A stretch of 33,912 nt of DNA from Patescibacteria group bacterium. Its GTDB lineage: Bacteria > Patescibacteriota > Minisyncoccia > Phycocordibacterales > DATDWN01. The notes under the pieces were generated by a model that made no database searches, had not been told where the DNA came from, and saw nothing but the letters and a program-made list of their open reading frames with translations. A program made the position numbers and the translations under genes. Location: positions 1 to 33,912 of the forward strand of contig JAZKJH010000007.1 in NCBI GenBank assembly GCA_040384485.1. The letters are read 5' to 3'. This document shows positions 1-28,024 of the stretch, piece after piece (the first letter of the stretch is position 1; every line of letters starts with the position of its first letter).

Positions 1-1
1 T

Positions 2-74
2 GCACCCATAACTCAGTTGGTAGAGTAGCTCCCTCTTAAGGAGAATGTCGTAGGTTCGATCCCTACTGGGTGCA
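2..74 (+). tRNA. tRNA-Lys (anticodon CTT)
   Basis: Acceptor stem GCACCCA(2-8)/TGGGTGC(67-73), D arm ACTCAGTTGGTAGAGT, anticodon loop CT-CTT-AA, T arm GTAGG-TTCGATC-CCTAC, discriminator A74; CCA not encoded. Confidence 0.95.
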
Positions 75-83
75 CTAGGCTAG

Positions 84-109
84 AAATCTCCCTGGGATGG
101 GAGATTTTT
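84..109 (+). terminator. Intrinsic terminator-like hairpin after tRNA-Lys
   Basis: AAATCTCCC-TGGGAT-GGGAGATTT followed by further T residues. Confidence 0.65.
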
Positions 110-110
110 C

Positions 111-265
111 GCACTAGTGCAAGCCGGAGCTACATTTTTTCAGTAGAAAAAATAAGCGAGGCAGGGTCGTGGAAATTTTTGAGCGTCGGCGAAAAAATTA
201 TCCCTGACCACAAGTGCACCTGAAAATAATGTACTGACCGAGTAGCGGTCGATACCCCTACTGGG
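111..265. repeat. tRNA-associated repeat element, copy 1
   Basis: CTAGTGCA (114-121) is the reverse complement of the tRNA-Lys end TGCACTAG (71-78). It contains AAGCC, internal hairpins, the core GTCGGCGAAAAAATTATCCCTGACC (185-209) shared with copy 2, and a degenerate direct copy of the tRNA T-arm/3' end (GGTCGATACCCCTACTGGG, 247-265). Confidence 0.7.
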
Positions 266-308
266 AAATGTCGCATTTTTTATTATTTATGATATATTGA
301 TATCCATC

Positions 309-390
309 GGGCAAGTGGCGGAATTGGTATACGCGCTAGTCTTAGGAACTAGTTCCTCACGGATTGGGAGTTCGAGTCTCCCCTTGCCCA
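309..390 (+). tRNA. tRNA-Leu (anticodon TAG)
   Basis: Acceptor GGGCAAG/CTTGCCC, anticodon arm CTAGT-CTTAGGA-ACTAG, long variable arm, T arm GGGAG-TTCGAGT-CTCCC, discriminator A390; CCA not encoded. Confidence 0.95.
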
Positions 391-397
391 CAAACAA

Positions 398-423
398 CAA
401 ACCGCGAAAGCGGTTTTTGTTTT
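398..423 (+). terminator. Intrinsic terminator after tRNA-Leu
   Basis: AAACCGC-GAAA-GCGGTTT hairpin followed by a T-rich tract. Confidence 0.8.
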
Positions 424-573
424 GGGACAAGGAGAAAGCTCTGGGGGAGCTTTCGTGGAGACTCGAAGCCTGTTTGAGATATTTTTTGGATTTCAAGAAC
501 AAAAATATCCAAACATGGGTACTGATCCTGTAAGGATCTAGTCGGCCTAAAAAATTATTCCTGACCGAGTCTC
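421..573. repeat. tRNA-associated repeat element, copy 2
   Basis: GGAGACTCGAA (457-467) is the exact reverse complement of tRNA-Leu TTCGAGTCTCC (371-381). It is followed by AAGCC, hairpins, the core GTCGGCCTAAAAAATTATTCCTGACC (541-566) and the direct T-arm copy CGAGTCTC (566-573). Confidence 0.7.
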
Positions 574-657
574 AGAATTTTCCCTCCTTACCCACTAACT
601 TTACATGTATATTTATATGTGTTATTATTTTCATGGACACTTTTAGAAAGGACAGCT

Positions 658-909
658 ATGAGACCTGGACCAGAAATCCTTGTGCAGCCAGTCGTCGAAC
701 ATGTCAGAAACGCCCCATCACGCTTGATGGGTATCGGTGCGACTCTCATGATTATTGGGCTATTCTTGATGATGGCCTTAGTTGCGGAAAATAGTTCCGT
801 ACTGAATTACATCGGCTTCATAGGGGTAGTTATGATGCTCATCGGAATCATCACAACTGGCATCGGCTACACAATTCTTGAACGCCGATGGAAAAAACAA
901 GGGCAATAA
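658..909 (+). CDS. Small two-TM hypothetical membrane protein (83 aa)
   Basis: In-frame ATG at 658 preceded by AAAGGA (647-652), preferred over the track start at 619; two hydrophobic helices and a basic C-tail. Confidence 0.7.
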   Translation: MRPGPEILVQPVVEHVRNAPSRLMGIGATLMIIGLFLMMALVAENSSVLNYIGFIGVVMMLIGIITTGIGYTILERRWKKQGQ

Positions 910-955
910 CGCCACGAGGAGTCATAGACCATTCGAACAAAGGAGATACAGCAAC

Positions 956-1165
956 ATGACCCAAGTTTGCGCAGCATGTGCCACCGACAAAAACAGTCAT
1001 CCACTTCCTGAAGCTGGAAGTGCAGTGAACAAAGTAATGCTCAATAGTTCACGCGAACAACTACTTCATATGTTTCAGGAACATGACCTTGGTTCCGGAG
1101 CATCCGATTGTGGATGTGTGGTGATGGATTATCAACTCTATCCCTGCAAAGAACACTCGAAGTAG
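956..1165 (+). CDS. Small Cys/His-rich hypothetical protein, possibly zinc-binding (69 aa)
   Basis: ATG at 956 preceded by AGGAG (941-945); CAAC, CGC and CKEH motifs; the stop is directly followed by a terminator hairpin. Confidence 0.65.
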   Translation: MTQVCAACATDKNSHPLPEAGSAVNKVMLNSSREQLLHMFQEHDLGSGASDCGCVVMDYQLYPCKEHSK

Positions 1166-1218
1166 TACCCCCGCCCGACAAACACAACCCGTGCTTCGTC
1201 CGGCGGGTTTTATTTTAT
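1166..1218 (+). repeat. Repeated bulged hairpin/terminator, copy A
   Basis: TACCCCCGCCCGACAAACACAACCCGTGCTTCGTCCGGCGGGTTTTATTTTAT; near-identical to 2089-2138. Confidence 0.85.
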
Positions 1219-1247
1219 TTGACAAAAGCACATAAATGTGCTAACAT
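1219..1247 (+). promoter_or_regulatory. Sigma70-type promoter with a palindrome in the spacer
   Basis: TTGACA (1219-1224), 17-nt spacer, TAACAT (1242-1247); AGCACAT-AA-ATGTGCT dyad at 1227-1242. Confidence 0.7.
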
Positions 1248-1264
1248 AAGTAGAGGAGATAACA

Positions 1265-1528
1265 ATGTTTGGAACACCGACTTTGAACAGACTGTTGTCT
1301 GGGAACCCGGTAGAGTTTGAAGGGATTAAAGTATTCCCTGTGAAAAACAGCGAAGGCAAGGTTACCACAGGGGAATCACTAAACCCTGGTGATGTGTACA
1401 TTGCTGAAAGAAACGGACCACCGCTACTGCTCACTGCCCAAAGAATCGACTTCTCGGCAGGAATAGTACTTCCTGATTGTAAGCAATATCCGTTCAACTT
1501 CGACGAGTGCGTCAAGGTTCGGTTCTAA
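1265..1528 (+). CDS. Hypothetical protein (87 aa)
   Basis: GAGGAG SD at 1253-1258, own promoter, beta-rich globular-looking sequence; no recognised family. Confidence 0.75.
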   Translation: MFGTPTLNRLLSGNPVEFEGIKVFPVKNSEGKVTTGESLNPGDVYIAERNGPPLLLTAQRIDFSAGIVLPDCKQYPFNFDECVKVRF

Positions 1529-1579
1529 AACAACTCGCAACTGAGCAGAGGACTGCTCACCTTCAACAGGAGTTTGCTT

Positions 1580-1798
1580 ATGGCACTGTTTACGTTCTTT
1601 TCCTGGACCTTTTACATCTCATGCATTGTGATCGCCCTGATTTCAGAAGACAGCTTCATAATCAGGGGTGCACCGGTAACGAGCCGATTCATTCGTGCAT
1701 TCGTAATCGCGACTCTGATACCGTGCATGGGTATCGTGTTCTACATCTTCGGCCTGGTGGGAAAATTCCTACTCTTGCCGATCACTTCTTTGTTTTAA
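1580..1798 (+). CDS. Small two-TM hypothetical membrane protein (72 aa)
   Basis: ATG at 1580 with AGGAG at 1568-1572; two hydrophobic segments. Confidence 0.65.
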   Translation: MALFTFFSWTFYISCIVIALISEDSFIIRGAPVTSRFIRAFVIATLIPCMGIVFYIFGLVGKFLLLPITSLF

Positions 1799-1810
1799 AG
1801 GGAGAAACCA

Positions 1811-2083
1811 ATGGAGTCACCGAGAGAAGTACTCGAGAAAATTGAGTTTGCGATTAAAACAAGAAATGCCGCTGTAGCCAATCTGAGCTACGAAGAGATC
1901 TGTTACCTTTTGAAATTCTATTGCGGTTTCAACCCAAAGACCGCAGAAGGCATCAAATCACGAATCGCGGACGGGCTACCCAGCCTGAAAGACGTTTCCG
2001 TTCAGATCACAGATGGCGGCCTCAATCCCACAGTCCGGTTTACAATGCCGGATGGGCAAAGAAAAACCTTCCGTTACTGCTAA
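1811..2083 (+). CDS. Hypothetical protein (90 aa)
   Basis: GGAGA SD at 1801-1805, 12 nt after the previous stop; followed by a terminator. Confidence 0.75.
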   Translation: MESPREVLEKIEFAIKTRNAAVANLSYEEICYLLKFYCGFNPKTAEGIKSRIADGLPSLKDVSVQITDGGLNPTVRFTMPDGQRKTFRYC

Positions 2084-2088
2084 CCACT

Positions 2089-2138
2089 TACCCCGCCGAC
2101 AACACAACCCGTGCTTTGTCAGGCGGGTTTTATTTTAT
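2089..2138 (+). repeat. Repeated bulged hairpin/terminator, copy B
   Basis: TACCCCGCCGACAACACAACCCGTGCTTTGTCAGGCGGGTTTTATTTTAT; differs from copy A by three single-base gaps and two substitutions. Confidence 0.85.
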
Positions 2139-2167
2139 GCCCAAATAACCTATATCTAAATTACAAA

Positions 2168-2196
2168 TTGACTTCCATTTTTAAATCACTTAATCT
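2168..2196 (+). promoter_or_regulatory. Sigma70-type promoter
   Basis: TTGACT (2168-2173), 17 nt, TAATCT (2191-2196). Confidence 0.65.
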
Positions 2197-2212
2197 TGGA
2201 TAGGAGGTCGCG

Positions 2213-2374
2213 ATGAGAAATATCGTTTTTGCTATTGAGGTCATTACTGGTTCGGCCGGGATTGTCCTTGGAATACTCGGACTAGTAGGATCGGCGGCGC
2301 CACTCATGCTTTATGGCGGAGCCTTGCAAGCCTTGGCTTTCGGACTAACACGAGAAAGACGAGGGCACTGGTGA
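2213..2374 (+). CDS. 53-aa hydrophobic microprotein not in the ORF track
   Basis: Hand translation MRNIVFAIEVITGSAGIVLGILGLVGSAAPLMLYGGALQALAFGLTRERRGHW*; AGGAGGT SD at 2202-2208, own promoter and terminator. Confidence 0.7.
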   Translation: MRNIVFAIEVITGSAGIVLGILGLVGSAAPLMLYGGALQALAFGLTRERRGHW

Positions 2375-2387
2375 CAATTCTTGAACC

Positions 2388-2412
2388 CTGCCGGCATATG
2401 TCGGCAGTTTTT
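2388..2412 (+). terminator. Intrinsic terminator
   Basis: CTGCCGGCA-TA-TGTCGGCAG followed by TTTTT. Confidence 0.75.
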
Positions 2413-2429
2413 ATTTATTAGAATAAACC

Positions 2430-2458
2430 TTGACAAATTAATTCTAATATGTTATCAA
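2430..2458 (+). promoter_or_regulatory. Sigma70-type promoter
   Basis: TTGACA (2430-2435), 17 nt, TG-n-TATCAA (imperfect -10). Confidence 0.5.
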
Positions 2459-2476
2459 TTGTTACAGGAGACCTAT

Positions 2477-2866
2477 ATGCCTTGCAGATCCGATTACCTC
2501 GAACCAACAACACGTGAACAGGAACTTCAGCGCGCTGCCAAACTTTTGGTGTATGTGCGCAGGAAGATGGGAATTGAACCTGAGGACTGGGCTTTGTCTC
2601 AGTCTGGGAACATCTACGCCAATGACGACCGAGCTGTTATTGAACTTTGCGCAGCGTTGACGTCGATGACGTCGGACGTCCTTGAGACGATCGTCTACAA
2701 CCCCCATGATGCCGAGTCTCGCGACTTGGCTGATTGGTGGGAGGTTCACCAGGCGGCAGATGCTGAGCGAGAGAAACGTGAAGCTGAGCAGGCGCAGGAC
2801 GAGGAAACCAAAAAGTCCGCGCTCGCGAAGCTCTCACCAGCAGAACGTAAAGCCTTGAAAGTGTAG
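2477..2866 (+). CDS. Hypothetical helical protein, possibly phage-related (129 aa)
   Basis: ATG at 2477 with AGGAG at 2466-2470 (the track start at 2381 overlaps a terminator and a promoter); begins MPCRSDY, contains LADWWEVHQ and a charged coiled-coil tail; GC-rich. Confidence 0.75.
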   Translation: MPCRSDYLEPTTREQELQRAAKLLVYVRRKMGIEPEDWALSQSGNIYANDDRAVIELCAALTSMTSDVLETIVYNPHDAESRDLADWWEVHQAADAEREKREAEQAQDEETKKSALAKLSPAERKALKV

Positions 2867-2880
2867 GCTCCGAACAAACG

Positions 2881-2917
2881 GCCACCACGTCAAATTGACG
2901 TGGTGGCTATTATTTTA
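2881..2917 (+). terminator. Perfect 13-bp inverted repeat, probable terminator
   Basis: GCCACCACGTCAA-A-TTGACGTGGTGGC then TATTATTTT. Confidence 0.7.
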
Positions 2918-2918
2918 C

Positions 2919-2947
2919 TTGACAAACTATTTCCATTATGATATCCT
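2919..2947 (+). promoter_or_regulatory. Sigma70-type promoter driving a non-coding region
   Basis: TTGACA (2919-2924), 17 nt, extended TG-n-TATCCT (2939-2947). Confidence 0.7.
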
Positions 2948-2953
2948 TAAAGG

Positions 2954-3150
2954 TAATAGTATTTCATCTTACTTTCGGGTCAGTTTGAGAATTCAAGGAA
3001 ATCAGTATCTCGTATCTATTCAGATCAATTAGACACTAGCTAACTTTCAGGCAATCACACAGATTACGCTTAAAGCACTATATATCAAAGAGGCCGTTCG
3101 AAACTTGGCTAGATATTGGTTTCCTTAAATTCTAAATCAGAAATACTACT
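2954..3150 (+). ncRNA. Candidate structured ncRNA of unknown family
   Basis: No ORF in the track. The ends pair (TAGTATTTC 2957-2965 / GAAATACTA 3140-3148); 23-position stem 2988-3010 / 3111-3133 with 20 Watson-Crick pairs, 2 G-U and 1 mismatch; flanked by a promoter and a terminator. Confidence 0.65.
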
Positions 3151-3156
3151 CAAAAC

Positions 3157-3182
3157 AAAGCCTGCATTTCGCAGGTTTTTGT
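3157..3182 (+). terminator. Intrinsic terminator
   Basis: AAAGCCTGC-ATTTC-GCAGGTTTTT. Confidence 0.75.
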
Positions 3183-3206
3183 CTATATAAATGATATAAT
3201 TTATCT

Positions 3207-3587
3207 ATGAAAAGGAAACTAGTTATTGAAATAATTCTTTCTATTGCATTTGTTTTTGTTGGGACTTATTTTATTTTTGGACACTTAGAACACATATCCC
3301 AATTCTGGAATTCACAGAACATCTGGAGCCTTATTCTTTCTCTAGGTTGGGTTGTTGTGGCTAGTGGATACTATCATCAAGGTTGGCTCATACATGAAAA
3401 ACACAATGCCAAAAATGTATCTCTACTCCTACCTGTATCTGTTTTCTTTATACAATGTATTTTGTTTATAAAAGGAATTTATTACGACGATTGGTCACTT
3501 ATTTGGGGTGCTCTTGTTGTAAACTCAGGTGTATCCTTTTCTATTTACCATATTATTAAATACCGATTTTTGATTAAAAAACCTTAG
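3207..3587 (+). CDS. Four-TM membrane protein, SemiSWEET/PQ-loop-like
   Basis: YYHQGWLIHEKHNAKNVS resembles the PQ-xx-K...A-x-D-x-S loop of the 3-helix PQ-loop unit, preceded by an extra N-terminal TM; AT-rich, with TATAAT 6 nt before the ATG. Confidence 0.5.
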   Translation: MKRKLVIEIILSIAFVFVGTYFIFGHLEHISQFWNSQNIWSLILSLGWVVVASGYYHQGWLIHEKHNAKNVSLLLPVSVFFIQCILFIKGIYYDDWSLIWGALVVNSGVSFSIYHIIKYRFLIKKP

Positions 3588-3617
3588 TTTAAGCCATAAA
3601 TATGGCAATATCTAACC

Positions 3618-3646
3618 TTGACTTTTGTATATTTATGGTATATAAT
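3618..3646 (+). promoter_or_regulatory. Near-consensus sigma70 promoter
   Basis: TTGACT (3618-3623), 17 nt, TATAAT (3641-3646). Confidence 0.8.
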
Positions 3647-3717
3647 ATGTACAGGATTTTGAGGGGTGTTATGTAACTCCCCCATTTGAGTTCGTTGACA
3701 CGAAAGAGGTGAACTAA

Positions 3718-4848
3718 ATGTTAGCAAAAATCATTAGTACGATAGTCGTCTTAATTGTCATAGCAGCCGTCGGGACCATCCCCGGATGGTGGTCTGGAAA
3801 TCCAATGCTTGGACTCCAGACAGTGGGTGTACTTGTGGGTTCTTTTCTGCTCACCTTTATCGCGGTGTGGGAAGGATCCCAACGAGGTATCGGACCCATC
3901 ATATCTATCGCAAGAAACCATATCGTTACTGTTGACAAGGGAAAAGGCAACCCGACGAAAATGTTGGCCAACCTTCCGCCCGGTTACGTAGTAAAGGGTA
4001 TGGAAATCGTAAAAGGAGATCCTTCTTGGAATCCATTCGCGAGTTTTTTACGATCGTTTGGTTTGTTCTACAAAGGTTGGCCTCCCCTGGAGGTCCATGA
4101 GTTTCCATTTCTTCATGAACGGATTAATCCGTCCTTGAACGAGGAAAAGCCTGAGGAGTGGATTGAGCGAGATAAAGCACCTGTGCCCACTCGCCACCTA
4201 CTCTGGGACAAGCAACATGACTTCATGATCCCAGGAGTGGAATTCAAGGGTGGCATGAGTGCGAATATAATGATCAACGCACGCTTTCTTTCTAAGAGAC
4301 CGTTGGTGTCGATCTATGACAGAGAAGGTAAGTTCTTTGATGTCATGAAGCCGATTATTCACGGCGCTGTAATTGGAATTGCATCATTGAAAGTCTACAA
4401 AGAAGAATTCAGTGAGGCAAATTCAAAAGAACGCGAGGCTTTTACTGAAAGCGTTCTTGAGTTCCTCAGGAAAAACGACCTGCTTGTTAGTCAAACTGGT
4501 CAGGAAATGATGAGTTTGGTTATTTCCAGACACAAGCCAGTGACCAAGGAGCAAGAAAAACTCCTGTTGCTGAAAGAGGAAGCCAAGATTCGAAGACAGG
4601 CCGCAATCATCGACGCTCAGGCTGATACTGCGGATGTAACTGAGATGATCAAAGCTGTTAAGCGTCAACTGAAAGACGCAAAAACGGAGCAGGTTATCGA
4701 ACTTGTTCGTGATCTTGCCGTTGCCACTCGCATGAAAGAAGCGGGTTCGCAAGCAATGAATGTGGGTGCCATGCTGGGCATGGGCCTAAGTAACAACAAA
4801 AACAGTCCTGGAGGAAAAGGTCCAGGTAGAGGAGGTCGTAGAAAATGA
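3718..4848 (+). CDS. Membrane-anchored protein, divergent SPFH/band-7-like
   Basis: Two N-terminal TMs; the segment IPGVEFKGGMSANIMINARFLSKRPLVSIY followed by helices and a G-x(4)-SLVI strand matches the SPFH pattern; Ala/Glu-rich coiled coil (EEAKIRRQAAIIDAQAD); GAGGTG SD. Confidence 0.55.
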   Translation: MLAKIISTIVVLIVIAAVGTIPGWWSGNPMLGLQTVGVLVGSFLLTFIAVWEGSQRGIGPIISIARNHIVTVDKGKGNPTKMLANLPPGYVVKGMEIVKGDPSWNPFASFLRSFGLFYKGWPPLEVHEFPFLHERINPSLNEEKPEEWIERDKAPVPTRHLLWDKQHDFMIPGVEFKGGMSANIMINARFLSKRPLVSIYDREGKFFDVMKPIIHGAVIGIASLKVYKEEFSEANSKEREAFTESVLEFLRKNDLLVSQTGQEMMSLVISRHKPVTKEQEKLLLLKEEAKIRRQAAIIDAQADTADVTEMIKAVKRQLKDAKTEQVIELVRDLAVATRMKEAGSQAMNVGAMLGMGLSNNKNSPGGKGPGRGGRRK

Positions 4849-5501
4849 TTAGTGGATTTTCGTTAATAATCCAATTCCTTCTGTCGGTGATTACCATTGC
4901 CTTGTTGGCATATGGTATTAACAAGGCAAAAGGTGAAGCTAAACTCACACCGCAACAATGGGCAGGGGTTTTCGTTCCTGTTCTGGTTGTGGTGGCAATC
5001 CACTTCGGGATTTACTGGGTACTGAGAGAGGAGTGGTGGTTGTGGGCCCAACAAAAAGGGTTCATGGTCTCACAGTTACTACTCGTTTTGGGGTTCTATG
5101 CTAGTGGCCTAACAGCTGGTGGCAAGGCTCCAAAAATGCTCGGTAACCTGGCGATAGTGATTGGTGCTGTAATATTTTTCAGCACTATCTACTCGACCGC
5201 CAGGATCACTATGGGGTACGAAAAGCCCAAGCTATCCGACCTTTGGGCAGAAAAAAAGGCCGACGAGGAGGAAGGAAACAAGGAGGTATTTCTGGTCTAC
5301 TCCAACAACTGGAGTAGCAGGAAATATCCTCGTGAGGGAGGAATCACAAAGGCCATGGGTCCGGTGAGAGTCCTCTACGATAACAACGAATACATCGACA
5401 TCGACGAGAAGTTCGATGGTGAGTGGCCAGAGATGAGCTGGTTCCGGATTAAGTCCAGGCGGACAGACGGAAAACCAGTTACAATCATCAGAACCTGGTA
5501 A
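4845..5501 (+). CDS. Hypothetical membrane protein (4 TM plus a soluble C-domain)
   Basis: ATGA overlap with the upstream gene, GGAGGT SD, four hydrophobic segments. Confidence 0.75.
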   Translation: MISGFSLIIQFLLSVITIALLAYGINKAKGEAKLTPQQWAGVFVPVLVVVAIHFGIYWVLREEWWLWAQQKGFMVSQLLLVLGFYASGLTAGGKAPKMLGNLAIVIGAVIFFSTIYSTARITMGYEKPKLSDLWAEKKADEEEGNKEVFLVYSNNWSSRKYPREGGITKAMGPVRVLYDNNEYIDIDEKFDGEWPEMSWFRIKSRRTDGKPVTIIRTW

Positions 5502-5910: not shown

Positions 5911-6261
5911 TTATTCAAGACCAGGAACAGTAGGGATAGTCACTGAGTTTCCTTCAATACCAAGTGTTGACTGCAACCATGCGATCAAACCGTAGATACT
6001 CACCATAACTGTAAGAGCAATAACACCGTAGATCATTATGCTCTTTCCTTCTGCAGCTGCCTTTGCATCTCCTGCAGCTCTGATGTATTTGATAAGACCC
6101 CAGAAGAAGTAAACTAGCGCTAATGCAAACAATATAGGCAACAAACTGTTTATAATGCCACCAATACTGTCTACAAGTCTCTCAATACCACCTAGATCTG
6201 CCTCTTGTGCCAAACCTATAGCTGGGGCGAAAGATAATACTGTATAAATAAATTTCTTCAT
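5911..6261 (-). CDS. VirB2/TrbC-like pilin family protein
   Basis: Signal peptide plus FFWGLIKYIRAAGD...EGKSIMIYGVIAL. Confidence 0.75.
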   Translation of the reverse strand: MKKFIYTVLSFAPAIGLAQEADLGGIERLVDSIGGIINSLLPILFALALVYFFWGLIKYIRAAGDAKAAAEGKSIMIYGVIALTVMVSIYGLIAWLQSTLGIEGNSVTIPTVPGLE

Positions 6262-6333
6262 AAATTATGCTTAATTAATTATTATGTGTAATGTTGTTAA
6301 TTATAGTACAAAAAACCGTAAATACAAGGGTTT

Positions 6334-6342
6334 TGTGGATAA
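6334..6342 (-). promoter_or_regulatory. Consensus DnaA box
   Basis: TGTGGATAA is the reverse complement of TTATCCACA; intergenic, just upstream of the putative promoter of the 5911-6261 pilin; single copy. Confidence 0.4.
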
Positions 6343-6365
6343 GTAAAGGGAACTTCCAGAACTAC

Positions 6366-6737
6366 TTACCAAGTTATAACCCCCACGTTTGGTATCTGAG
6401 AGTTAGGTGTCATAACATTAGGGTTTGGGTCTATACTAATCAAGTCACCCAAGAACAGCAGAATGCCCCACCATGAAGCCAGAACGAAAAGTGCAATAAC
6501 TCCCCACATCATCTTCTTTCGCCCTTCCTCTCGAGCTTTATCGTCGTTTGACTTCAAGATGGACTGTGCTACACCCCAAAAGAAGTACACAAGGGCTATG
6601 GCGAAGATAAGGTTATCCAAAAGCTGAAGAATCCCATAAAACTCCATCAAAAGATTTCTAAATCCCCCCAATGCACCGAAAGCCATAGCTGGGGTTAAAA
6701 CTAAAGCCAAACTTGCTAATATATATTTGTTTTTCAT
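6366..6737 (-). CDS. VirB2/TrbC-like pilin family protein
   Basis: Signal peptide plus FFWGVAQSILKS...EEGRKKMMWGVIAL. Confidence 0.75.
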   Translation of the reverse strand: MKNKYILASLALVLTPAMAFGALGGFRNLLMEFYGILQLLDNLIFAIALVYFFWGVAQSILKSNDDKAREEGRKKMMWGVIALFVLASWWGILLFLGDLISIDPNPNVMTPNSQIPNVGVITW

Positions 6738-6770
6738 AATTATAATTATATTGTAAATAAAAATAAAACT

Positions 6771-7142
6771 CTATCTTGGCCCTGTTGGCAACAGGATACT
6801 GTTCGGATTCGGGTTCTTGTCACCTATCTCCAAATCACTTGAAACAAGCCCGATGATGACTCTGAATGTGAACAGGACAAACAAAGCAAGTAAGCCCCAC
6901 AACATGTAGTTTCTGCCGTTTTTAATACCATCGGCACTGTCGGAATGTAAAATAAACTTGGACATCCCCCAAAAAAAGAAAACGATGGCAAGACTGACAA
7001 GTATGGGTATTAGTATGTTTATAATCTCAATCACCTCCATCACAATACCTTTAAAAGTGCTCCCACTAAGAGAAAAATCAGCTGCCAAAGCATAGGCTGG
7101 AACTAACAAAAACAAAAAACTCAAAAATATTTTATTCTTCAT
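6771..7142 (-). CDS. VirB2/TrbC-like pilin family protein
   Basis: Signal peptide (AYALA) plus FFWGMSKFILHS...NGRNYMLWGLLAL. Confidence 0.75.
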   Translation of the reverse strand: MKNKIFLSFLFLLVPAYALAADFSLSGSTFKGIVMEVIEIINILIPILVSLAIVFFFWGMSKFILHSDSADGIKNGRNYMLWGLLALFVLFTFRVIIGLVSSDLEIGDKNPNPNSILLPTGPR

Positions 7143-7144
7143 TT

Positions 7145-7561
7145 TTATTTTGTAAGTGATTCAACGGTCCTTTGGACAACTTCTGATATAGCAGTGGCGC
7201 CAAGCAAAATGCCCGCACCGACCAGTGACCATAGCAACCGTTGCTTAGCTTTTTCAATTTCCGCGGGTTTACCCTGTGCTGTGATGAAAGTGAAGCCCGC
7301 CCAGATAATCCAAAGCACTACTGCTACGGCTGCAATGGGCATAATAACGTTTTTAAGTATGAGTGTAATAAGGCTCATAATAGTACAGTTGTCGCCGCAA
7401 TCCACTGGGTTAGTAAGGTTAACTCCAATCGTTGTAGTTTTTGGGTTCTCTTGTCCTCCCCCCCCCTCTTGATTTGGAACATTCACGGCACCTGCAAAAA
7501 CTGGTAACAAAAATAGTCCGAACAAAAAAACTCCTAATAATTTATTTTTTAAATTAATCAT
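7145..7561 (-). CDS. VirB2/TrbC-like pilin family protein
   Basis: Signal peptide, LTNP motif, Cys pair, IIWAGFTFITAQGKPAEIEKAKQRLLWSLVG. Confidence 0.8.
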   Translation of the reverse strand: MINLKNKLLGVFLFGLFLLPVFAGAVNVPNQEGGGGQENPKTTTIGVNLTNPVDCGDNCTIMSLITLILKNVIMPIAAVAVVLWIIWAGFTFITAQGKPAEIEKAKQRLLWSLVGAGILLGATAISEVVQRTVESLTK

Positions 7562-7564
7562 ATT

Positions 7565-7987
7565 TTAAAATATATCTTTTAATTCATCCTTTAACAGACT
7601 GCTTGTTATTAAGTTTACAATAAGCCAAGCTCCCAGGATTACCGCTATACCTATTGCTACCTTTTTTAGCATTTCTTTAGCTTTTGTTCTTTCTCCAGGA
7701 CTGTCTGCATACACCATTATTTTAAAACCGGCATATGCTATCACCACCACAGAAAAAGATATAGCTAAAGTGGTGCCCCAATTTACGGCCTTCTGAATTG
7801 CTGCTATCAAATCATCAAAATCACATTCGCCTGGTTTACCGTCACATTCATAGACTAAACCACCTTTATTTTCCGTTGCAGCAGACTCATCAGCAAAAAC
7901 CAGAAATGGAAAGAAAAAAAGAAAAAATATAGATGCAAAAACAAAAATATTTGATACAACAGTCTTCAATGCTAGAGTTTTTGTCAT
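7565..7987 (-). CDS. VirB2/TrbC-like pilin family protein
   Basis: Signal peptide, GGLVYEC...CDFDDL, IAYAGFKIM...SPGERTKAKEML...GAWLIV. Confidence 0.8.
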   Translation of the reverse strand: MTKTLALKTVVSNIFVFASIFFLFFFPFLVFADESAATENKGGLVYECDGKPGECDFDDLIAAIQKAVNWGTTLAISFSVVVIAYAGFKIMVYADSPGERTKAKEMLKKVAIGIAVILGAWLIVNLITSSLLKDELKDIF

Positions 7988-24049: not shown

Positions 24050-25213
24050 TTACTTAATTTCTTTTATTTCTTTGTCTATAACTTCTTCTATATCCTCCAA
24101 CTGTTGTTTTAATTCATTTTTAGTTTTCAACTCTCTCTTTCTTATTCCTGATGCTGTCTTTGCACCAACCAAATAGCTAACATATTGTGAAAGGCCATCC
24201 TTCAGTGTATCAAATGATTTATGTAATACATGCTCAGCTTCAACTATTTCTTTGCCTCGAGCTTTTTTCATATGAGTATACTTCCACCAAATTATTGCGA
24301 AAACTAGAAGCACTAAAGCGAGCAGGGCTAGCAACGTAACTATAATAGAAGCGTAGTTCAAAACTACTCCCCCAAGTCTTATAAATTGATTTGAAACAAT
24401 CTCGACTGTTATAGGAATAGACAGTCCACTCTCTGCACCGGTATCAGTTATACTTTTTGCCCAAATTCTATAATATCCTGACTCCGCTTTTTTAGGATAA
24501 GTAAACTTAAACTTTCCATCAGGACCAGAAAAAGTATACTCGTAAATCAAATCTGAATTGCCTTTTTGCAAAACTATAGAAATTTTCGAAAGTGGGTGGC
24601 CCAAACCTTCGATAGTTATAGTATCCCCGGCCTCTAGTTTTTCTGGCCAGTTGGTTATAACTGGGGCTGACAAGGGTGCTGGAGTTGCCTCGCCCTCATC
24701 TGGAGCAACTACGGGTGTTTGAACTTTTGCAGGTGTAGTTGCAGGTGTAACAGTAAAAATAGATCCTCTCATTGAGTCCAGAATATTTGATCCTTGCCCA
24801 TCATTTGCCAAAACAGAACCTGACATAAAATTAACAGGAGCTTGTCCAGTTGCCTTGGCTCTAAAAGTAATCCTGAGTATCCCACCACTTGCTCCAGTAA
24901 ATCCTGGACTTGGAACTCCACCACCAAACTTTATGTTTCCCGCAATGTTGGAAAAACTTGGGTTCTCAGTCCATAGACTGAATATAGATTGGGAGTAACC
25001 CAGGCTAACCACCTCTAGTCGTGTGTTGTCGAAGTTAATTTGAGCCATCCCAGCGTTGATTGATTGACCACCGCTATTCAAATTAACAAGCGTAGAAAAA
25101 ATCTCACCGACTTCATATGTACCCACCGAAGGACTGACGGACATAGTCGCCTGAGCATTGGTGATAAGAGGCAAGAAAATAAAAACTAATATAGCTAGTA
25201 TTATTTTTTTCAT
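24050..25213 (-). CDS. Cohesin-domain surface protein with an Ig-like domain, TM and cytoplasmic coiled coil
   Basis: Signal peptide; cohesin-like beta sandwich (SPSVGTYEVGEIF..INA...INFD..LEV..SIFSLW..P..IKFGGGVP.PGF.G..G.I..ITFRAKATG); Pro/Thr linker; Ig-like domain; TM. Confidence 0.8.
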   Translation of the reverse strand: MKKIILAILVFIFLPLITNAQATMSVSPSVGTYEVGEIFSTLVNLNSGGQSINAGMAQINFDNTRLEVVSLGYSQSIFSLWTENPSFSNIAGNIKFGGGVPSPGFTGASGGILRITFRAKATGQAPVNFMSGSVLANDGQGSNILDSMRGSIFTVTPATTPAKVQTPVVAPDEGEATPAPLSAPVITNWPEKLEAGDTITIEGLGHPLSKISIVLQKGNSDLIYEYTFSGPDGKFKFTYPKKAESGYYRIWAKSITDTGAESGLSIPITVEIVSNQFIRLGGVVLNYASIIVTLLALLALVLLVFAIIWWKYTHMKKARGKEIVEAEHVLHKSFDTLKDGLSQYVSYLVGAKTASGIRKRELKTKNELKQQLEDIEEVIDKEIKEIK

Positions 25214-25214
25214 A

Positions 25215-26183
25215 TTAAGATTTTGAAACTCTTCTTTTTGGTTTTATAGAAAACCAAGTTCTTGTCACAACAAAAGTCGCCAGAATTGCACCTACAAATA
25301 AAGCTAGAACTACTGTGCCATCAAATGGTTTTGATGTTTTGGACACAACTACATTCCCAGCATTGTCATATGCTTTTATTTCCACTCGACTTCCCCATTT
25401 TTGATATTTTAAAATATACGGGCTCGTTGCCTCTTGCCACTCTGTCTGAAATTTACTACCGAGAATTCCTAGTCCTGACATAACTTCCTTTACTTCATAC
25501 TTTGAAATTCCTGAATCCTTATCTACTGCAAAAAACGATACGAAGTATTTATTTTCCTCCACTGACTCATGTCGAGTTACCATCGGCACAAATGACTCTG
25601 GTGCTACTGTGTCTGCAGGTAGCATTGGTTCGACTTCTATAGGTGTTTCTGTGGAGGTAGGTTTTGTTGGAACAACAACAGGTTTGGTAGGTTCAGTTTT
25701 GGGAACCACAGGTGCTTTTCCAACAGTCAAAACTAGAGTTGGAGTAGATACTTTTAATTCGCTTCCACTACCGTCGTTAAGTAAAACGCTTACATCCTGT
25801 AGTGAAATACTCATAGTACCTTCACTACTTGGACGAACCACAAAACTCATTATTGTTCCTATTCCGCCATTAAAACCCCCTGGAATGCCCCCAGTAAAGG
25901 CTATGCTGCGAGTACCACTGTTCCAGGTGGGTTTGTCTACCCATAGTGATATTATTGAGCTACCGTATCGTATATCTCCTGTGGTAGCTAGAGCTGGAAT
26001 ATTCACCTTTCCACCTATGGTGTTAATAGAGTTACCCTTTGTATCTATGTACAAGGTCACCAAAACACTTTCGTTTGTATACACGTTTGTCTTGCTCGTT
26101 CTCATGTACACTGATTGAGCAGAAGATAGTGTTGGTAGACACATCAAAACAAAAAACAAAAAGAAATAAAAAAACTTACTCAT
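25215..26183 (-). CDS. Cohesin-domain surface protein with a C-terminal TM anchor
   Basis: Signal peptide; paralogous cohesin-like domain (SINT..SIISLWVDKP..IAFTGGIPGGF.G..VLLNDG.G); PT linker; DTVAPESF..D.DSGI..YEV..AYDNAGN Ig/Fn3-like module; TM plus basic tail. Confidence 0.8.
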   Translation of the reverse strand: MSKFFYFFLFFVLMCLPTLSSAQSVYMRTSKTNVYTNESVLVTLYIDTKGNSINTIGGKVNIPALATTGDIRYGSSIISLWVDKPTWNSGTRSIAFTGGIPGGFNGGIGTIMSFVVRPSSEGTMSISLQDVSVLLNDGSGSELKVSTPTLVLTVGKAPVVPKTEPTKPVVVPTKPTSTETPIEVEPMLPADTVAPESFVPMVTRHESVEENKYFVSFFAVDKDSGISKYEVKEVMSGLGILGSKFQTEWQEATSPYILKYQKWGSRVEIKAYDNAGNVVVSKTSKPFDGTVVLALFVGAILATFVVTRTWFSIKPKRRVSKS

Positions 26184-26219
26184 ATTTATATAAATTATAA
26201 TACATTTTTATTTATTAAA

Positions 26220-27578
26220 CTATCCTGTCCACCAGAACAACATTATTGAAAAGTCAAAAATGTTTACTACTTTATCTTTGTTTATGTCAGCACATAGATT
26301 TTTTGGATTAGTTTGGTTCCAGAAGAAAAGTAAAATAGAGAAGTCTACGATGTTTACTTTTTTATCATTATTCAAATCCCCGTTTTTATTACAAGCTCCA
26401 GCTGGAATAGGTGTTCCTATGACCTGTCCAGCCGGTACATCCCTATCTCCAACTCTAAAGGCTAAACTCTCAGAGAATGGAGATATCACGCTATCTCTCG
26501 CTACAACCTGGCTTTTAGAGGTGTGGTTACCTATTTCAAGAGGGGTTGAGTTCAGAGTATATTTCCAAAAACCAACATTATCCGACGGTGTTTTATCTAT
26601 TATCTGGGTTTCAGAGTTAACCACAATATTCACATCAGAGTTGGGGTAACCGAAACCGAAAAACTGAATATTGTTTCCGGACTTAACTTCAGACTTATCG
26701 GAGCCAATAGTTGGTGCAACGACAATGTCGGAAATGGTTGTTGTTTGTCCCGATATTATGTTTGCTGTAAAACTTGTTGTGAGTGACCTTCTGTTATCTT
26801 TGTCTATCGCGTACACAGAGAAACTATATATTCCTCCCGCCACCAGGTTTTCAATTTGCCAGTTTCCTCCACTGTCTACGGTTGGAGTTCCTATTACCGT
26901 TCCATCTCGAAACATATTTACTGTAGCTCCAGGATATGCACGTCCTTTTATCAATACTTTTGTATCAGCTGGTCCTACTGGTGGTGGTGTGGCCCCGCCG
27001 CCTCCACCTCCTCCGCCGCCTCCACCCCCGGGAGTTGGGGTTGGTACAACCACTGGAGCTACCGGAATTGACGACACCTCTGTAGAAGTAGCTATAAAGT
27101 TTCCGAATGCATCTTGTACCCTAATTACAAAATAATAAGCCGTACTGTTGGTAAGACCTGTCCTAGTTGAAGTTGTTACATTTCCGACAGAAGTATAGCT
27201 ATATGGACCGCCTGACGCAGTAGCCTGCCCTACAGTGTAACCACTAGGTGTCCAACCCAAAAGACCAGTGGATGCAGTCCAGGAAAGTCCCACTTGCGCA
27301 TTACCCGCAGAAGCTGAAACAACAGGGCTACTTGCAAAAGGAAAGTATAGAAAACCTGAGTTCGTTCCAAAAGATGTAGCTGTGCTTGTGCCAATAGCCA
27401 CCTGAGATATCACACCAAACAGACTAAAATTAGTAGACGCTCCGTACCCTCCAGCATTCATAACTGAATCTAAAATTTTATAACTAGTAGAGTTAAACTC
27501 CTGTGCCCTAACTCCAAGTGAGAATAAAAAAACAAACAGCAGCACCGATATCCGTATTGTATTTTTTTGTTTGTTCAC
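26220..27578 (-). CDS. Secreted Fn3/Ig-like protein with a C-terminal dockerin domain
   Basis: Signal peptide; Fn3 (VGLSW..GY...GLTNSTAYYFVIRV); PTPTP-G12 linker; two Ig-like domains; duplicated Ca-binding motifs GDLNNDKKVNIVDFSILL and ADINKDKVVNIFDFSIML. Confidence 0.85.
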   Translation of the reverse strand: MNKQKNTIRISVLLFVFLFSLGVRAQEFNSTSYKILDSVMNAGGYGASTNFSLFGVISQVAIGTSTATSFGTNSGFLYFPFASSPVVSASAGNAQVGLSWTASTGLLGWTPSGYTVGQATASGGPYSYTSVGNVTTSTRTGLTNSTAYYFVIRVQDAFGNFIATSTEVSSIPVAPVVVPTPTPGGGGGGGGGGGGATPPPVGPADTKVLIKGRAYPGATVNMFRDGTVIGTPTVDSGGNWQIENLVAGGIYSFSVYAIDKDNRRSLTTSFTANIISGQTTTISDIVVAPTIGSDKSEVKSGNNIQFFGFGYPNSDVNIVVNSETQIIDKTPSDNVGFWKYTLNSTPLEIGNHTSKSQVVARDSVISPFSESLAFRVGDRDVPAGQVIGTPIPAGACNKNGDLNNDKKVNIVDFSILLFFWNQTNPKNLCADINKDKVVNIFDFSIMLFWWTG

Positions 27579-27604
27579 AGAGTTTATCTAATTTGAAATA
27601 TCGT

Positions 27605-27964
27605 TTACTCAGGTAAGTTATAAGGCGATACTTCTATTATTTTATTTTCACTTGGCCTAAACAAAATGACCTTCTGGCTTTTTTCATAAACAACAACTTT
27701 ATCCCCCACTTTGCTATTTACGAAAAAGACTTGGTCTTTTAGTTTTTCTGGATCTGTTACTGTCGCAACAGTAGGAGTTTCGCCTTGAGGTAATTCCATC
27801 AATTTTCCTAATTTATTAACAATAGATGCTATTTCTTTTTGTTCAGCAGCCTCTGGGTTCTTTAAAAGGTCCAGATCACTATAGAATTTGAAAGACATCC
27901 CGATAGAAACAACAAGCAATAGCGCGAGAGCAATTATTATTTTTTTATAATTTTTTTCAAGCAT
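27605..27964 (-). CDS. Single-TM conserved-looking hypothetical protein
   Basis: N-terminal TM; LPQGETPTVATVTD.EKL..Q.FF....GDKV..Y...ILFRP...KII; lies between the dockerin gene and the giant adhesin. Confidence 0.8.
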   Translation of the reverse strand: MLEKNYKKIIIALALLLVVSIGMSFKFYSDLDLLKNPEAAEQKEIASIVNKLGKLMELPQGETPTVATVTDPEKLKDQVFFVNSKVGDKVVVYEKSQKVILFRPSENKIIEVSPYNLPE

Positions 27965-28024
27965 ACAAATATAATCTACTTTTCTTTAAGTAGATTATAT
28001 AACAAACTCGACTAATTAGACAAA

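What the first reader, a model, noticed from the sequence alone, without database searches (positions are those of the whole stretch)
71..573. Both tRNA genes carry a related downstream element whose ends are copied from that specific tRNA
Seen: each tRNA is followed by the same order of parts: terminator hairpin, inverted copy of the tRNA's own 3' part, AAGCC (121-125; 466-470), AT-rich hairpins, a shared core GTCGGC-N1-2-AAAAAATTAT(C/T)CCTGACC (185-209; 541-566), and a direct copy of tRNA 3' sequence. For Leu, GAGACTCG (458-465) and CGAGTCTC (566-573) are T-arm-derived terminal inverted repeats. For Lys, GCACTAGTG (111-119) and CACAAGTGC (209-217) match 8/9, and a degenerate T-arm copy lies at 247-265. 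A second motif, GTACTGA plus a small hairpin, occurs in both but in a different order (231-250; 519-539). Inference: a modular, non-autonomous element family that targets tRNA 3' ends and templates its termini from the host tRNA. On read-through it would give anti-tRNA RNA able to pair with the T-arm. No enzyme is encoded here.
Basis: partly seen in the sequence, partly recalled or inferred. Interest (0 to 1): 0.75.

Follow-up and report, generated by a model that had tools for sequence, protein, structure and literature searches.

The report
Small folded inserts copying gene ends
Behind both tRNA genes sit copies of a widespread, apparently undescribed family of small gene-less folded DNA inserts that settle at the ends of conserved genes in ultra-small Patescibacteria, each carrying an inverted and a direct copy of that gene's last bases, with no known enzyme to move them.

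Summary
The shared 25-nt "core" is half of one hairpin of a module ("B"). The GTACTGA-plus-hairpin motif is the 3' cap of a second module ("A").

- **Anatomy.** Both tRNA spacers are composites of A and B units. A unit reads: host gene end, hairpin or terminator, inverted copy of that end, short linker, module, cap hairpin, direct copy of the end.
- **Own genome.** Of 23 module copies (A, B and a third module C), 18 lie 31-81 nt behind tRNA or tmRNA genes. The others lie behind 5S rRNA, rplL and rpsI, and on the 5' side of tRNA-Ile.
- **Arms and cores.** The arms track the host gene. The module cores do not.
- **Insertions.** Close relatives have empty and filled alleles at the same tRNA.
- **Fold.** Stems covary, and 27 of 31 units fold better on the host-gene strand.
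- **Not found.** No Rfam family and no paper describes them. No integrase, transposase, reverse transcriptase or Cas1 is linked. A RAYT link and a replication-strand bias were tested and not supported.

Best reading (about 0.5): a non-autonomous, homology- or guide-armed insertion cassette moved by host recombination. The mechanism is inferred.

This scan had already noted the same family in at least nine other genomes.

The parts
2..75 (+). tRNA-Lys(ctt), host gene 1. Its last ~20 nt are the copied end ('E1').
   Evidence: ARAGORN; Rfam tRNA, 66.3 bits.
82..109 (+). Hairpin plus T-run directly after tRNA-Lys ('L1').
   Evidence: Read. The same hairpin type recurs behind tRNA-Ile(tat) on contig C4.
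111..120 (+). Short inverted arm of the B-type unit. It pairs with 209-217.
   Evidence: Closing helix in the predicted fold. The motif recurs in relatives' Lys(ctt) units.
121..213 (+). Module B: linker, first hairpin, then a long AT-rich hairpin.
   Evidence: nhmmer hit at 119-212, E 6.8e-23. There are 9 copies in the genome, 7 of them behind tRNA or tmRNA.
209..219 (+). Partial direct copy of the tRNA-Lys acceptor end, closing the B unit.
231..250 (+). Cap of an A-type unit remnant: GTAC-type motif plus a small hairpin with a GTA loop.
   Evidence: The motif and hairpin covary in 66 aligned copies.
247..265 (+). Degenerate direct copy of the tRNA-Lys T-arm to 3' end ('E2').
   Evidence: Direct self-score 25. 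It is the best match that does not fall on a real tRNA gene.
309..391 (+). tRNA-Leu(tag), host gene 2.
   Evidence: ARAGORN; Rfam tRNA, 59.6 bits.
392..423 (+). Two-way intrinsic terminator hairpin ('L1'); stem at 399-416.
   Evidence: Terminator-like on both strands.
424..467 (+). Inverted arm. The acceptor-strand complement (424-432) is followed by an inserted hairpin (433-456), then a perfect 11-nt complement of the T-loop and T-stem (457-467).
   Evidence: Inverted self-score 22, rank 1 of 40, tied. The same three-part arm occurs behind many tRNAs.
466..539 (+). Module A: linker AAGCC, a long hairpin with a bulged A, the GTAC-type joiner and the cap hairpin.
   Evidence: nhmmer hit at 460-535, E 1.2e-21. 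Covariance model R1 gives 83.1 bits at 458-547. Covariation.
541..566 (+). Truncated module B, loop and 3' arm only.
   Evidence: Compared with full B copies.
566..595 (+). Decayed direct copy of the tRNA-Leu T-arm to 3' end ('E2'), interrupted by 8 nt.
   Evidence: Closes the predicted fold.
600..628 (+). Promoter-like site of the first orphan ORF (658-909). It marks the end of the unit.
   Evidence: Matches 10 of 12 consensus positions.

Best explanation
These are copies of a family of small (about 130-250 nt), gene-less, strongly folded insertion cassettes.

**Anatomy.** A unit sits immediately behind the last bases of a highly conserved gene. It consists of:
- a hairpin or terminator;
- an arm complementary to the gene end;
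- a short conserved linker;
- one of at least three unrelated structured modules (A, B or C);
- a small cap hairpin;
- a spare direct copy of the gene end.

**Proposed mechanism (inferred).**
- The cassette spreads as DNA, probably single-stranded.
- The conserved gene and the spare copy act as homology arms. When DNA from a relative is taken up, host recombination loops the folded cassette into the resident gene end.
- The complementary arm masks the first copy, and with the hairpins it keeps the insert compact.
- The old gene end is left behind as the direct repeat and then decays.
- Repeated events pile units up, as behind Lys and Leu here.

No step needs an element-encoded enzyme. A host or unknown trans-acting protein that reads the conserved unpaired bases is likely.
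For: **Shown: these are insertions.**
- The Lys-Leu spacer is 18 nt in G019 but 160-233 nt in four genus relatives.
- tRNA-Leu is bare in G022 and G001.
- tRNA-Trp is filled in G004 and bare in the own genome. The flanking gene is orthologous (62.5% identity over 128 aa) and shifted by 123 nt.
- Metatranscriptome or metagenome contigs join Lys directly to Leu.

**Shown: the arms follow the host.**
- The own tail is the top direct match in 11 of 40 downstream regions.
- Perfect 22-23-nt repeats occur at Glu(ttc) and Thr(ggt) in the own genome and in relatives.

**Shown: hosts are conserved translation genes on either side.**
- tRNAs, tmRNA, 5S rRNA, rplL and rpsI carry units.
- One unit lies on the 5' side of tRNA-Ile.
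- rplK and other gene ends carry units in other genomes.

**Shown: module cores are shuffled relative to targets.**
- The nearest neighbour sits at the same tRNA in another genome for 0 of 9 copies.
- It sits in the same genome at a different tRNA for 3 of 9.

**Shown: the fold is conserved.**
- 9 of 20 predicted pairs have double-sided changes in 66 copies.
- 27 of 31 units fold better on the host-gene strand, by a mean of 5.6 kcal/mol.

**Shown: no dedicated enzyme in the 94%-complete genome.**
- One tyrosine recombinase and one RAYT were found.
- No reverse transcriptase, IS110, TnpB, serine recombinase or Cas1 was found.

**Shown: distribution.**
- All 24 genus relatives have a match, plus 15 of 16 other families of the order.
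- Only 8 of 150 class genomes and 1 of 150 phylum genomes match the model.

**Also relevant.** Three unrelated modules share the same arm logic, which points to a general host process.
Against: - The mechanism rests on anatomy only. No uptake or recombination step was observed.
- The conserved unpaired bases, the bulged A and the GTA loops are more than a mere 'compact insert' needs. They argue for a specific protein partner that I did not find.
- A right homology arm of about 20 nt is short for RecA-type recombination.
- How arms are remade for a new host gene is unexplained. Three or four host-specific segments are interleaved with conserved scaffold.
- Module similarity within one genome could come from gene conversion and not from jumps.
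- The excess of G-U pairs on one strand could reflect inheritance within subfamilies or mutation bias.
- In the window's Leu unit the opposite strand folds slightly better.
- RNA-library contigs contain relatives' modules, so an RNA role is not excluded.
Confidence: 0.5

Rival explanations
1. Functional structured RNA. The units are transcribed with, or just after, the host gene. They act as RNA, for example as a processed small RNA closed by a tRNA-like acceptor/T helix, a 3'-end protecting or terminating module, or an antisense to the tRNA 3' half.
For: - 21 of 23 own-genome copies lie co-oriented behind gene 3' ends.
- Stems covary and junction bases are conserved.
- 27 of 31 units fold better on the host-gene strand, with more G-U pairs there.
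- Two metatranscriptome runs hold contigs with relatives' modules. One has depth 158.8 and joins a tRNA-type arm to module B.
Against: - A strong two-way terminator usually lies between the tRNA and the unit.
- The spare copy decays and the arm does not follow it. At positions where the two copies differ, the arm fits the live gene end in 25 of 26 cases by a biased count. An unbiased placement gives 4 of 6.
- One unit lies on the 5' side of tRNA-Ile, on the opposite strand.
- Presence and absence vary between close relatives.
- Contigs cannot show transcription or RNA ends.
- No Rfam family matches.
Confidence: 0.2
2. Scars or miniature derivatives (CIME-like) of tyrosine-integrase elements that cross over in the tRNA T-loop. 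The direct copy is the displaced gene fragment (attR) and the modules are arm-type binding sites.
For: - Direct repeats run from the T-loop to the tRNA end.
- tmRNA is also a host.
- This is the pattern that marks integrase islands, according to the abstract of PMC4383910 seen in the listing.
Against: - The same design occurs behind protein genes, 5S rRNA and a tRNA 5' end.
- No integrase lies nearby, and no far direct copy exists within 6 kb.
- No module was found in 80 viral loci, and the strict module A pattern has 0 hits in IMG/VR.
- More than a dozen targets share the same modules.
- An inverted copy of the target is not an att feature (recalled knowledge).
Confidence: 0.1
3. Non-autonomous IS200/IS605-type or REP-like elements, moved as single strands by the resident Y1 (RAYT-type) transposase.
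For: - Hairpin-rich ends and one-strand folding.
- A location at gene ends.
- A RAYT-like gene in the genome. Its family is multi-copy in many genomes of the class.
Against: - The RAYT's own flanking palindrome is unlike the modules.
- RAYT homologues occur in 5 of 8 module-A-positive genomes, against 81 of 150 overall. G035 has 4 module hits and no RAYT.
- There is no replication-strand bias: 11 of 23 units are on the G-rich strand, as are 23 of 40 tRNAs.
- A 17-25-nt copy of the target at the far end is not known for this family (recalled knowledge).
Confidence: 0.08
4. By-products of replication template switching at terminator palindromes (snap-back copying of the gene end). Modules would be exchanged between loci by gene conversion at T-loop microhomology, with no true mobility.
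For: - The gene end, terminator and inverted arm often form one long near-perfect palindrome, for example behind Arg(tct), Arg(gcg) and rpsI.
- The inverted arm ends, and the direct copy starts, at the palindromic T-loop.
Against: - A conserved hairpin is inserted inside the inverted arm.
- The same scaffold occurs behind protein genes that have no T-loop.
- Fresh, complete units with perfect repeats appear in single relatives.
- The identical multi-part order recurs across families.
Confidence: 0.07

Closest known systems
Genomic islands and prophages integrated by tyrosine integrases into tRNA/tmRNA genes, and their miniature cis-mobilisable derivatives
   Same: - They insert at tRNA and tmRNA 3' parts.
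- The gene stays intact.
- A displaced copy of the T-loop-to-3'-end marks the far border (PMC4383910, abstract seen).
   Different: - Units are only 130-250 nt, and no integrase lies in or near them.
- Dozens of different targets share the same modules.
- Protein genes, 5S rRNA and a tRNA 5' end are also used.
- An inverted copy of the target sits next to the gene.
REP/BIME/REPIN palindromes with RAYT, and IS200/IS605-derived palindrome-associated elements
   Same: - Small non-coding hairpin repeats at gene ends.
- Folding on one strand.
- A trans-acting enzyme is assumed. REP families are described in PMC3733652 (abstract seen).
   Different: - Arms are copied from the neighbouring gene.
- There is no association with the RAYT family.
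- There is no replication-strand bias.
- The RAYT's own palindromes differ from the modules.
Gene-end displacement by homology-facilitated or short-homology recombination after DNA uptake
   Same: - A conserved gene serves as the anchor.
- The old gene end is pushed downstream as a decaying direct repeat.
   Different: - Here the inserted DNA is a conserved folded scaffold and not an arbitrary gene.
- It carries a complementary arm and a cap hairpin that also match the target.
Hairpin-forming repetitive elements of organelle and reduced genomes, such as the sponge mitochondrial repetitive hairpin-forming elements and Neisseria Correia elements
   Same: Abundant small hairpin elements with no transposase of their own, often near tRNA genes (PMC2800124, abstract seen). 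The Correia elements are recalled from memory.
   Different: Those elements have fixed ends and short or no target duplications. None is reported to carry arms matching each host gene.
Guide-bearing mobile elements: IS110 bridge RNA, group II intron exon-binding sites, IS608 guide bases
   Same: Target-matching segments are interleaved with a conserved folded scaffold. This resemblance is recalled and was not tested by any search.
   Different: - No IS110, reverse transcriptase or TnpB was found in the genome.
- The matching segments are 15-25 nt long and come in both orientations.
- The units encode nothing.

Membership tests
tRNA/tmRNA-integrating tyrosine-integrase element, or its miniature derivative | Direct repeat of the target gene's 3' part at the far border, with the gene regenerated | tested here: met
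   Repeats reach 22-23 nt without a mismatch.
tRNA/tmRNA-integrating tyrosine-integrase element, or its miniature derivative | A cognate integrase in the element, or at least in the genome or its phages | tested here: not met
   - One PF00589 gene only, at C3:169188 and far from any unit.
- No far repeat within 6 kb.
- 0 of 80 viral loci carry a module.
tRNA/tmRNA-integrating tyrosine-integrase element, or its miniature derivative | One fixed target per element lineage, in tRNA or tmRNA genes | tested here: not met
   The same modules occur at more than 15 tRNAs, tmRNA, 5S rRNA, rplL, rpsI and a tRNA 5' end.
IS200/IS605-derived element or REP with RAYT | Co-occurrence with a Y1 transposase | tested here: not met
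   5 of 8 module-positive genomes have a RAYT homologue, against 81 of 150 overall. G035 has units but no RAYT.
IS200/IS605-derived element or REP with RAYT | Active strand on the lagging-strand template, seen as orientation bias with replication | tested here: not met
   11 of 23 units lie on the G-rich strand. The genome is in 7 contigs, so replichores were inferred from GC skew only.
Classical MITE (cut-down DDE transposon) | Fixed terminal inverted repeats shared by all copies, and a short target duplication of fixed length | tested here: not met
   The terminal arms differ with each host gene. Duplicated stretches span 10-38 nt.
Any Rfam 15 RNA family | Covariance-model match at the gathering score | tested here: not met
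   Only tRNA, tmRNA and 5S rRNA reach threshold in window 1-1000 and in 12 own-genome loci holding modules A, B and C.
IS110-type element with bridge RNA | DEDD recombinase gene next to the guide-bearing RNA | tested here: not met
   PF01548 has no match in the own genome, which is 94% complete.
Casposon or Cas1-type integration (long target duplication at tRNA ends) | Cas1-family integrase | tested here: not met
   PF01867 has no match in the own genome.
Retroelement using a tRNA primer-binding site | A reverse transcriptase, and an arm complementary to the mature tRNA end including CCA | tested here: not met
   - PF00078 has no match.
- The arms do not include the CCA complement.
- The same arms occur behind protein genes.

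The most novel reading that the evidence does not exclude
The units are a programmable class of selfish DNA. A conserved folded scaffold holds exchangeable segments that base-pair with, and duplicate, the end of whatever conserved gene it sits behind.

This would let a gene-less cassette home into the same gene in any genome. Either an undiscovered trans-acting, structure-reading recombinase does the work, or the cell's own uptake and recombination machinery does it alone. The arms would be re-templated from the live gene end by hairpin correction.

The piles of units would then also serve as docking points where orphan gene cassettes are exchanged.
Probability: 0.25. Interest if true: 0.9.

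Novelty: new variant of a known kind. Interest (0 to 1): 0.72.

Why it matters
- **Scale.** Patescibacteria have tiny genomes with almost no recognised mobile DNA. Yet about half of the tRNA genes here carry these inserts, and they turn over between close relatives.
- **If moved by host recombination alone.** They would be a clean natural example of DNA that spreads by carrying its own homology arms. They would also explain why variable orphan genes gather behind tRNA genes in these bacteria.
- **If a protein reads the scaffold.** A target-matching, easily re-armed insertion system would be of interest for genome engineering.
- **Practical point.** The family is an unannotated source of tRNA-fragment 'pseudogenes', long palindromes and assembly breaks in these genomes.

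Tried and rejected
- **Sequencing runs.** Only assembled contigs were available, with no raw reads. They cannot show RNA ends, strand or level. The parts without RNA cover say nothing.
- **Viral contigs.** The strict module A pattern gave 0 hits. The loose 14-base cap pattern gave 120 hits, which were chance matches: 0 of 80 fetched loci matched any module profile.
- **RAYT.** Its flanking palindrome is unlike the modules, and there is no co-occurrence.
- **Replication-strand bias.** None found.
- **LAGLIDADG homing endonuclease as driver.** There is a single copy in the genome, behind a tRNA without a unit. It is left as a side observation.
- **'The tRNA-His unit derives from a tRNA-Glu unit'.** On inspection the two deciding positions are the fixed scaffold motif and a G-T wobble, so I dropped it.
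- **Does the inverted arm track the live gene end or the spare copy?**
  - The first count (25 to 1) is biased by how the arm was aligned.
  - The unbiased version has only 6 usable sites, split 4:1:1.
  - A gapped global measure had no power: the shuffled control scored 15.0 of 19 against 16.5 observed.
- **Hammerhead-like core at the three-way junction.** Considered from the CUGA motif. The motif is incomplete and Rfam finds nothing.
- **Literature.** Searches found no paper on such elements. The one preprint opened (passages only) was irrelevant.
- **Phylum and class surveys.** They used Infernal's stricter filters and scored 29 candidates per genome, so weak copies may be missed.
Full report
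**What is in the window**

ARAGORN finds tRNA-Lys(ctt) at 2-75 and tRNA-Leu(tag) at 309-391. The 25-26-nt core occurs exactly twice, and none of 100 shuffles gave any match. Both spacers fold into closed multi-branch structures whose ends pair. The z-scores are -3.1 to -4.8 against dinucleotide shuffles, on either strand.

**It is a genome-wide family**

The window is contig C7 of an 809-kb, 7-contig genome with 39 tRNA genes and one tmRNA gene.
- A 17-mer from the core, with up to 2 mismatches, hits 11 places. The reversed control hits none.
- Reading the 330 nt behind every tRNA showed a common design: gene end (E1), hairpin or terminator (L1), inverted copy of the gene end (often split by an inserted hairpin), short linker, a structured module, a cap hairpin, and a direct copy of the gene end (E2).
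- There are three unrelated modules. Module A is a long hairpin with a bulged A, then a GTAC-type joiner and a hairpin with a GTA loop. Module C is G-rich.
- Iterated nhmmer profiles find 10 A, 9 B and 4 C copies. Of these 23, 18 lie 31-81 nt behind a co-oriented tRNA or tmRNA.
- The window's Lys spacer is a B unit followed by the cap and E2 of an A unit. The Leu spacer is an A unit followed by half a B hairpin and a decayed E2.

**The arms track the host gene**

I aligned each of the 40 gene tails to each of the 40 downstream regions.
- The gene's own tail is the best direct match, with score 20 or more, in 11 regions. Scores reach 44-46, against 21-31 for the best foreign tail.
- High foreign scores are almost all real neighbouring tRNA genes.
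- Inside the window the signal is only moderate. For Leu the inverted copy ranks 1 (tied) and the direct copy ranks 3. For Lys the direct copy is the best match outside real genes and the inverted copy ranks 7.

**The target is not tRNA as such**

The five own-genome copies that lie away from tRNA 3' ends have these hosts:
- the 3' end of 5S rRNA, with a direct repeat of about 38 nt;
- the stop codon of rplL;
- the stop codon of rpsI, where the gene end, terminator and inverted arm form one long palindrome;
- the 5' side of tRNA-Ile(gat) (two copies), in the opposite orientation to the tRNA, with a 25-nt repeat of the tRNA's 5' end.

In other genomes the same scaffold follows rplK and other protein genes. 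The common factor is the edge of a very conserved block, mostly of the translation apparatus.

**They are insertions**

In relatives the tRNA cluster reads Cys, Leu(taa), Lys(ctt), Leu(tag).
- The Lys-Leu spacer is 18 nt in G019, against 160, 179, 204 and 233 nt in G007, G024, G023 and the window.
- tRNA-Leu(tag) is followed by a plain terminator in G019, G022 and G001. It carries differing A/B combinations in the window, G007, G024, G023, G003 and G017, and also in G033, which belongs to another family.
- tRNA-Trp is bare in the own genome and filled in G004. The gene beyond it is orthologous (62.5% identity over 128 aa) and displaced by 123 nt. So E2 abuts the original flank.
- Contigs from other samples join Lys directly to Leu.

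**Distribution**

- A DNA search with window 76-640 matches 40 of 41 genomes, the own genome included: all 24 genus relatives and 15 of 16 other families of the order. The one miss, G035, has 4 hits to the covariance model.
  - Nearly all record titles are Patescibacteria lineages.
  - A few titles from other phyla lacked the cap and look like chance matches.
- Among the 81 pattern matches in the 80 fetched loci, 31 have a co-oriented tRNA ending within 200 nt upstream. 71 carry the GTAC-type cap.
- Covariance model R1 finds module A in 8 of 150 genomes drawn from the class and 1 of 150 from the phylum. Module A is therefore dense in this order and patchy elsewhere.

**Fold and strand**

- In 66 aligned A copies, 9 of 20 predicted pairs show double-sided changes. 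The other 11 pairs are invariant because the search pattern fixed them. Unpaired positions (AAG, AC.G, GTA) are nearly invariant.
- Over 31 units bounded by clear repeats, the host-gene strand folds better in 27, by a mean of 5.6 kcal/mol, and has more G-U pairs.
- This favours a single-stranded form of that strand, whether DNA or RNA. Inheritance within subfamilies or mutation bias could contribute.

**Cores against arms**

- Module cores do not group by target. Nine copies had both kinds of candidate neighbour. The nearest neighbour is at the same tRNA in another genome for none of them, in the same genome at a different tRNA for 3, and elsewhere for 6.
- Near-identical cores sit at Leu, Gln and Arg in the own genome; at Arg, Asp and Leu in G012; and at Leu and Lys in G023.
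- Either units move between targets within a genome and their arms are remade, or cores are homogenised by gene conversion. I cannot tell which.

**Search for an enzyme**

- The own genome (94% complete) has one tyrosine recombinase, far from any unit. It also has one RAYT-type Y1 transposase.
- It has no match to reverse transcriptase, IS110, TnpB, serine recombinase or Cas1.
- The RAYT's own palindromes differ from the modules.
- Its family is present in 81 of 150 class genomes, often in several copies. It occurs in only 5 of the 8 module-positive ones, and G035 has units but no RAYT.
- Units show no replication-strand preference: 11 of 23 lie on the G-rich strand.
- No module was found in viral contigs.

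**RNA evidence**

- Only assembled contigs were available. Two metatranscriptomes contain short contigs 80-90% like modules A and B. One contig of depth 158.8 joins a tRNA-type arm to module B. This is a hint of transcription in relatives, no more.
- A two-way terminator separates tRNA-Leu from its unit.
- Where E2 differs from E1, the inverted arm fits E1 in 25 of 26 positions by an alignment-biased count. With unbiased placement it fits E1 in 4 of 6. There is therefore no sign that the arm-E2 helix is maintained.

**Mechanism**

Shown:
- Insertion occurs directly behind a conserved gene end.
- The host flank follows E2.
- Arms match the host, while the scaffold is shared between hosts.
- Units pile up in series.
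- No element-encoded or associated enzyme was found.

Inferred: the conserved gene and E2 act as left and right homology for host recombination when DNA from a relative is taken up. The inverted arm masks E1 so that the folded cassette is looped in. The displaced end decays.

Support for this reading:
- It accounts for the restriction to the most conserved genes, on either side of them.
- Three unrelated modules share the same arm logic.

What it does not explain:
- the conserved unpaired bases, which suggest a protein partner;
- how several interleaved arm segments are renewed for a new target.

The rivals are a functional RNA, integrase scars, RAYT-driven elements and template-switch by-products. 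They are weighed in their own sections.

**Known kinds**

- The nearest described things are tRNA/tmRNA-integrating islands (PMC4383910, abstract only), REP/RAYT systems (PMC3733652, abstract only) and hairpin elements of organelle genomes (PMC2800124, abstract only).
- Defining features of each were tested and not met: integrase, Y1 association and strand bias, fixed ends.
- No Rfam 15 family matches.
- Four full-text searches found no description. Supplements were not consulted.
- Earlier notes of this scan describe the same family in at least nine other genomes and also call it undescribed. They are leads, not evidence.

**Verdict**

The family is real, apparently undescribed and mechanistically unexplained.

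Noticed in passing
G000:C2:318704-319279 (-), outside the window; also L011:822-1500 and L199:2612-3214: A free-standing LAGLIDADG_3 homing-endonuclease-like ORF (192 aa) with its own promoter lies directly behind tRNA-Leu(caa). It is single-copy in the genome. Similar ORFs lie directly behind tRNA-Lys(ctt) in G033 and behind a module A unit at tRNA-Leu(caa) in another Patescibacteria genome.
   Followed up: partly
window 658-5501 (+): Eight consecutive ORFs with no Pfam family follow the tRNA-Leu unit. The first has its own promoter-like site at 600-628. Relatives have different genes at this spot, so it looks like a variable orphan cassette.
   Followed up: partly
window 5911-7987 (-): Five tandem paralogous small genes match the type IV secretion pilin family (T4SS_pilin / TrbC).
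   Followed up: no
window 24050-33910 (-): Cohesin-domain and dockerin/Ig-domain ORFs lie next to a protein of more than 1900 aa with FG-GAP repeats, which runs off the window end.
   Followed up: no
G000:C3:24739-25398 (+) and class-wide: The RAYT-like Y1 transposase is single in this genome. Its family has up to about 9-11 matching places in other genomes of the class, so it is not a single-copy gene everywhere.
   Followed up: partly
G000:C2:331004-331198 and window 1-391: Contig C2 ends with tRNA-Cys and tRNA-Leu(taa), and the window starts with tRNA-Lys(ctt). Relatives have these four tRNAs in one cluster, so the two contig ends are probably adjacent. The assembly probably broke at a unit.
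   Followed up: no
L246:2410-2637; L213; L254: In some genomes a whole left part of a unit (gene end, hairpin, inverted arm) is repeated perfectly (69-96 nt) after the cap. This indicates very recent tandem addition of units.
   Followed up: no
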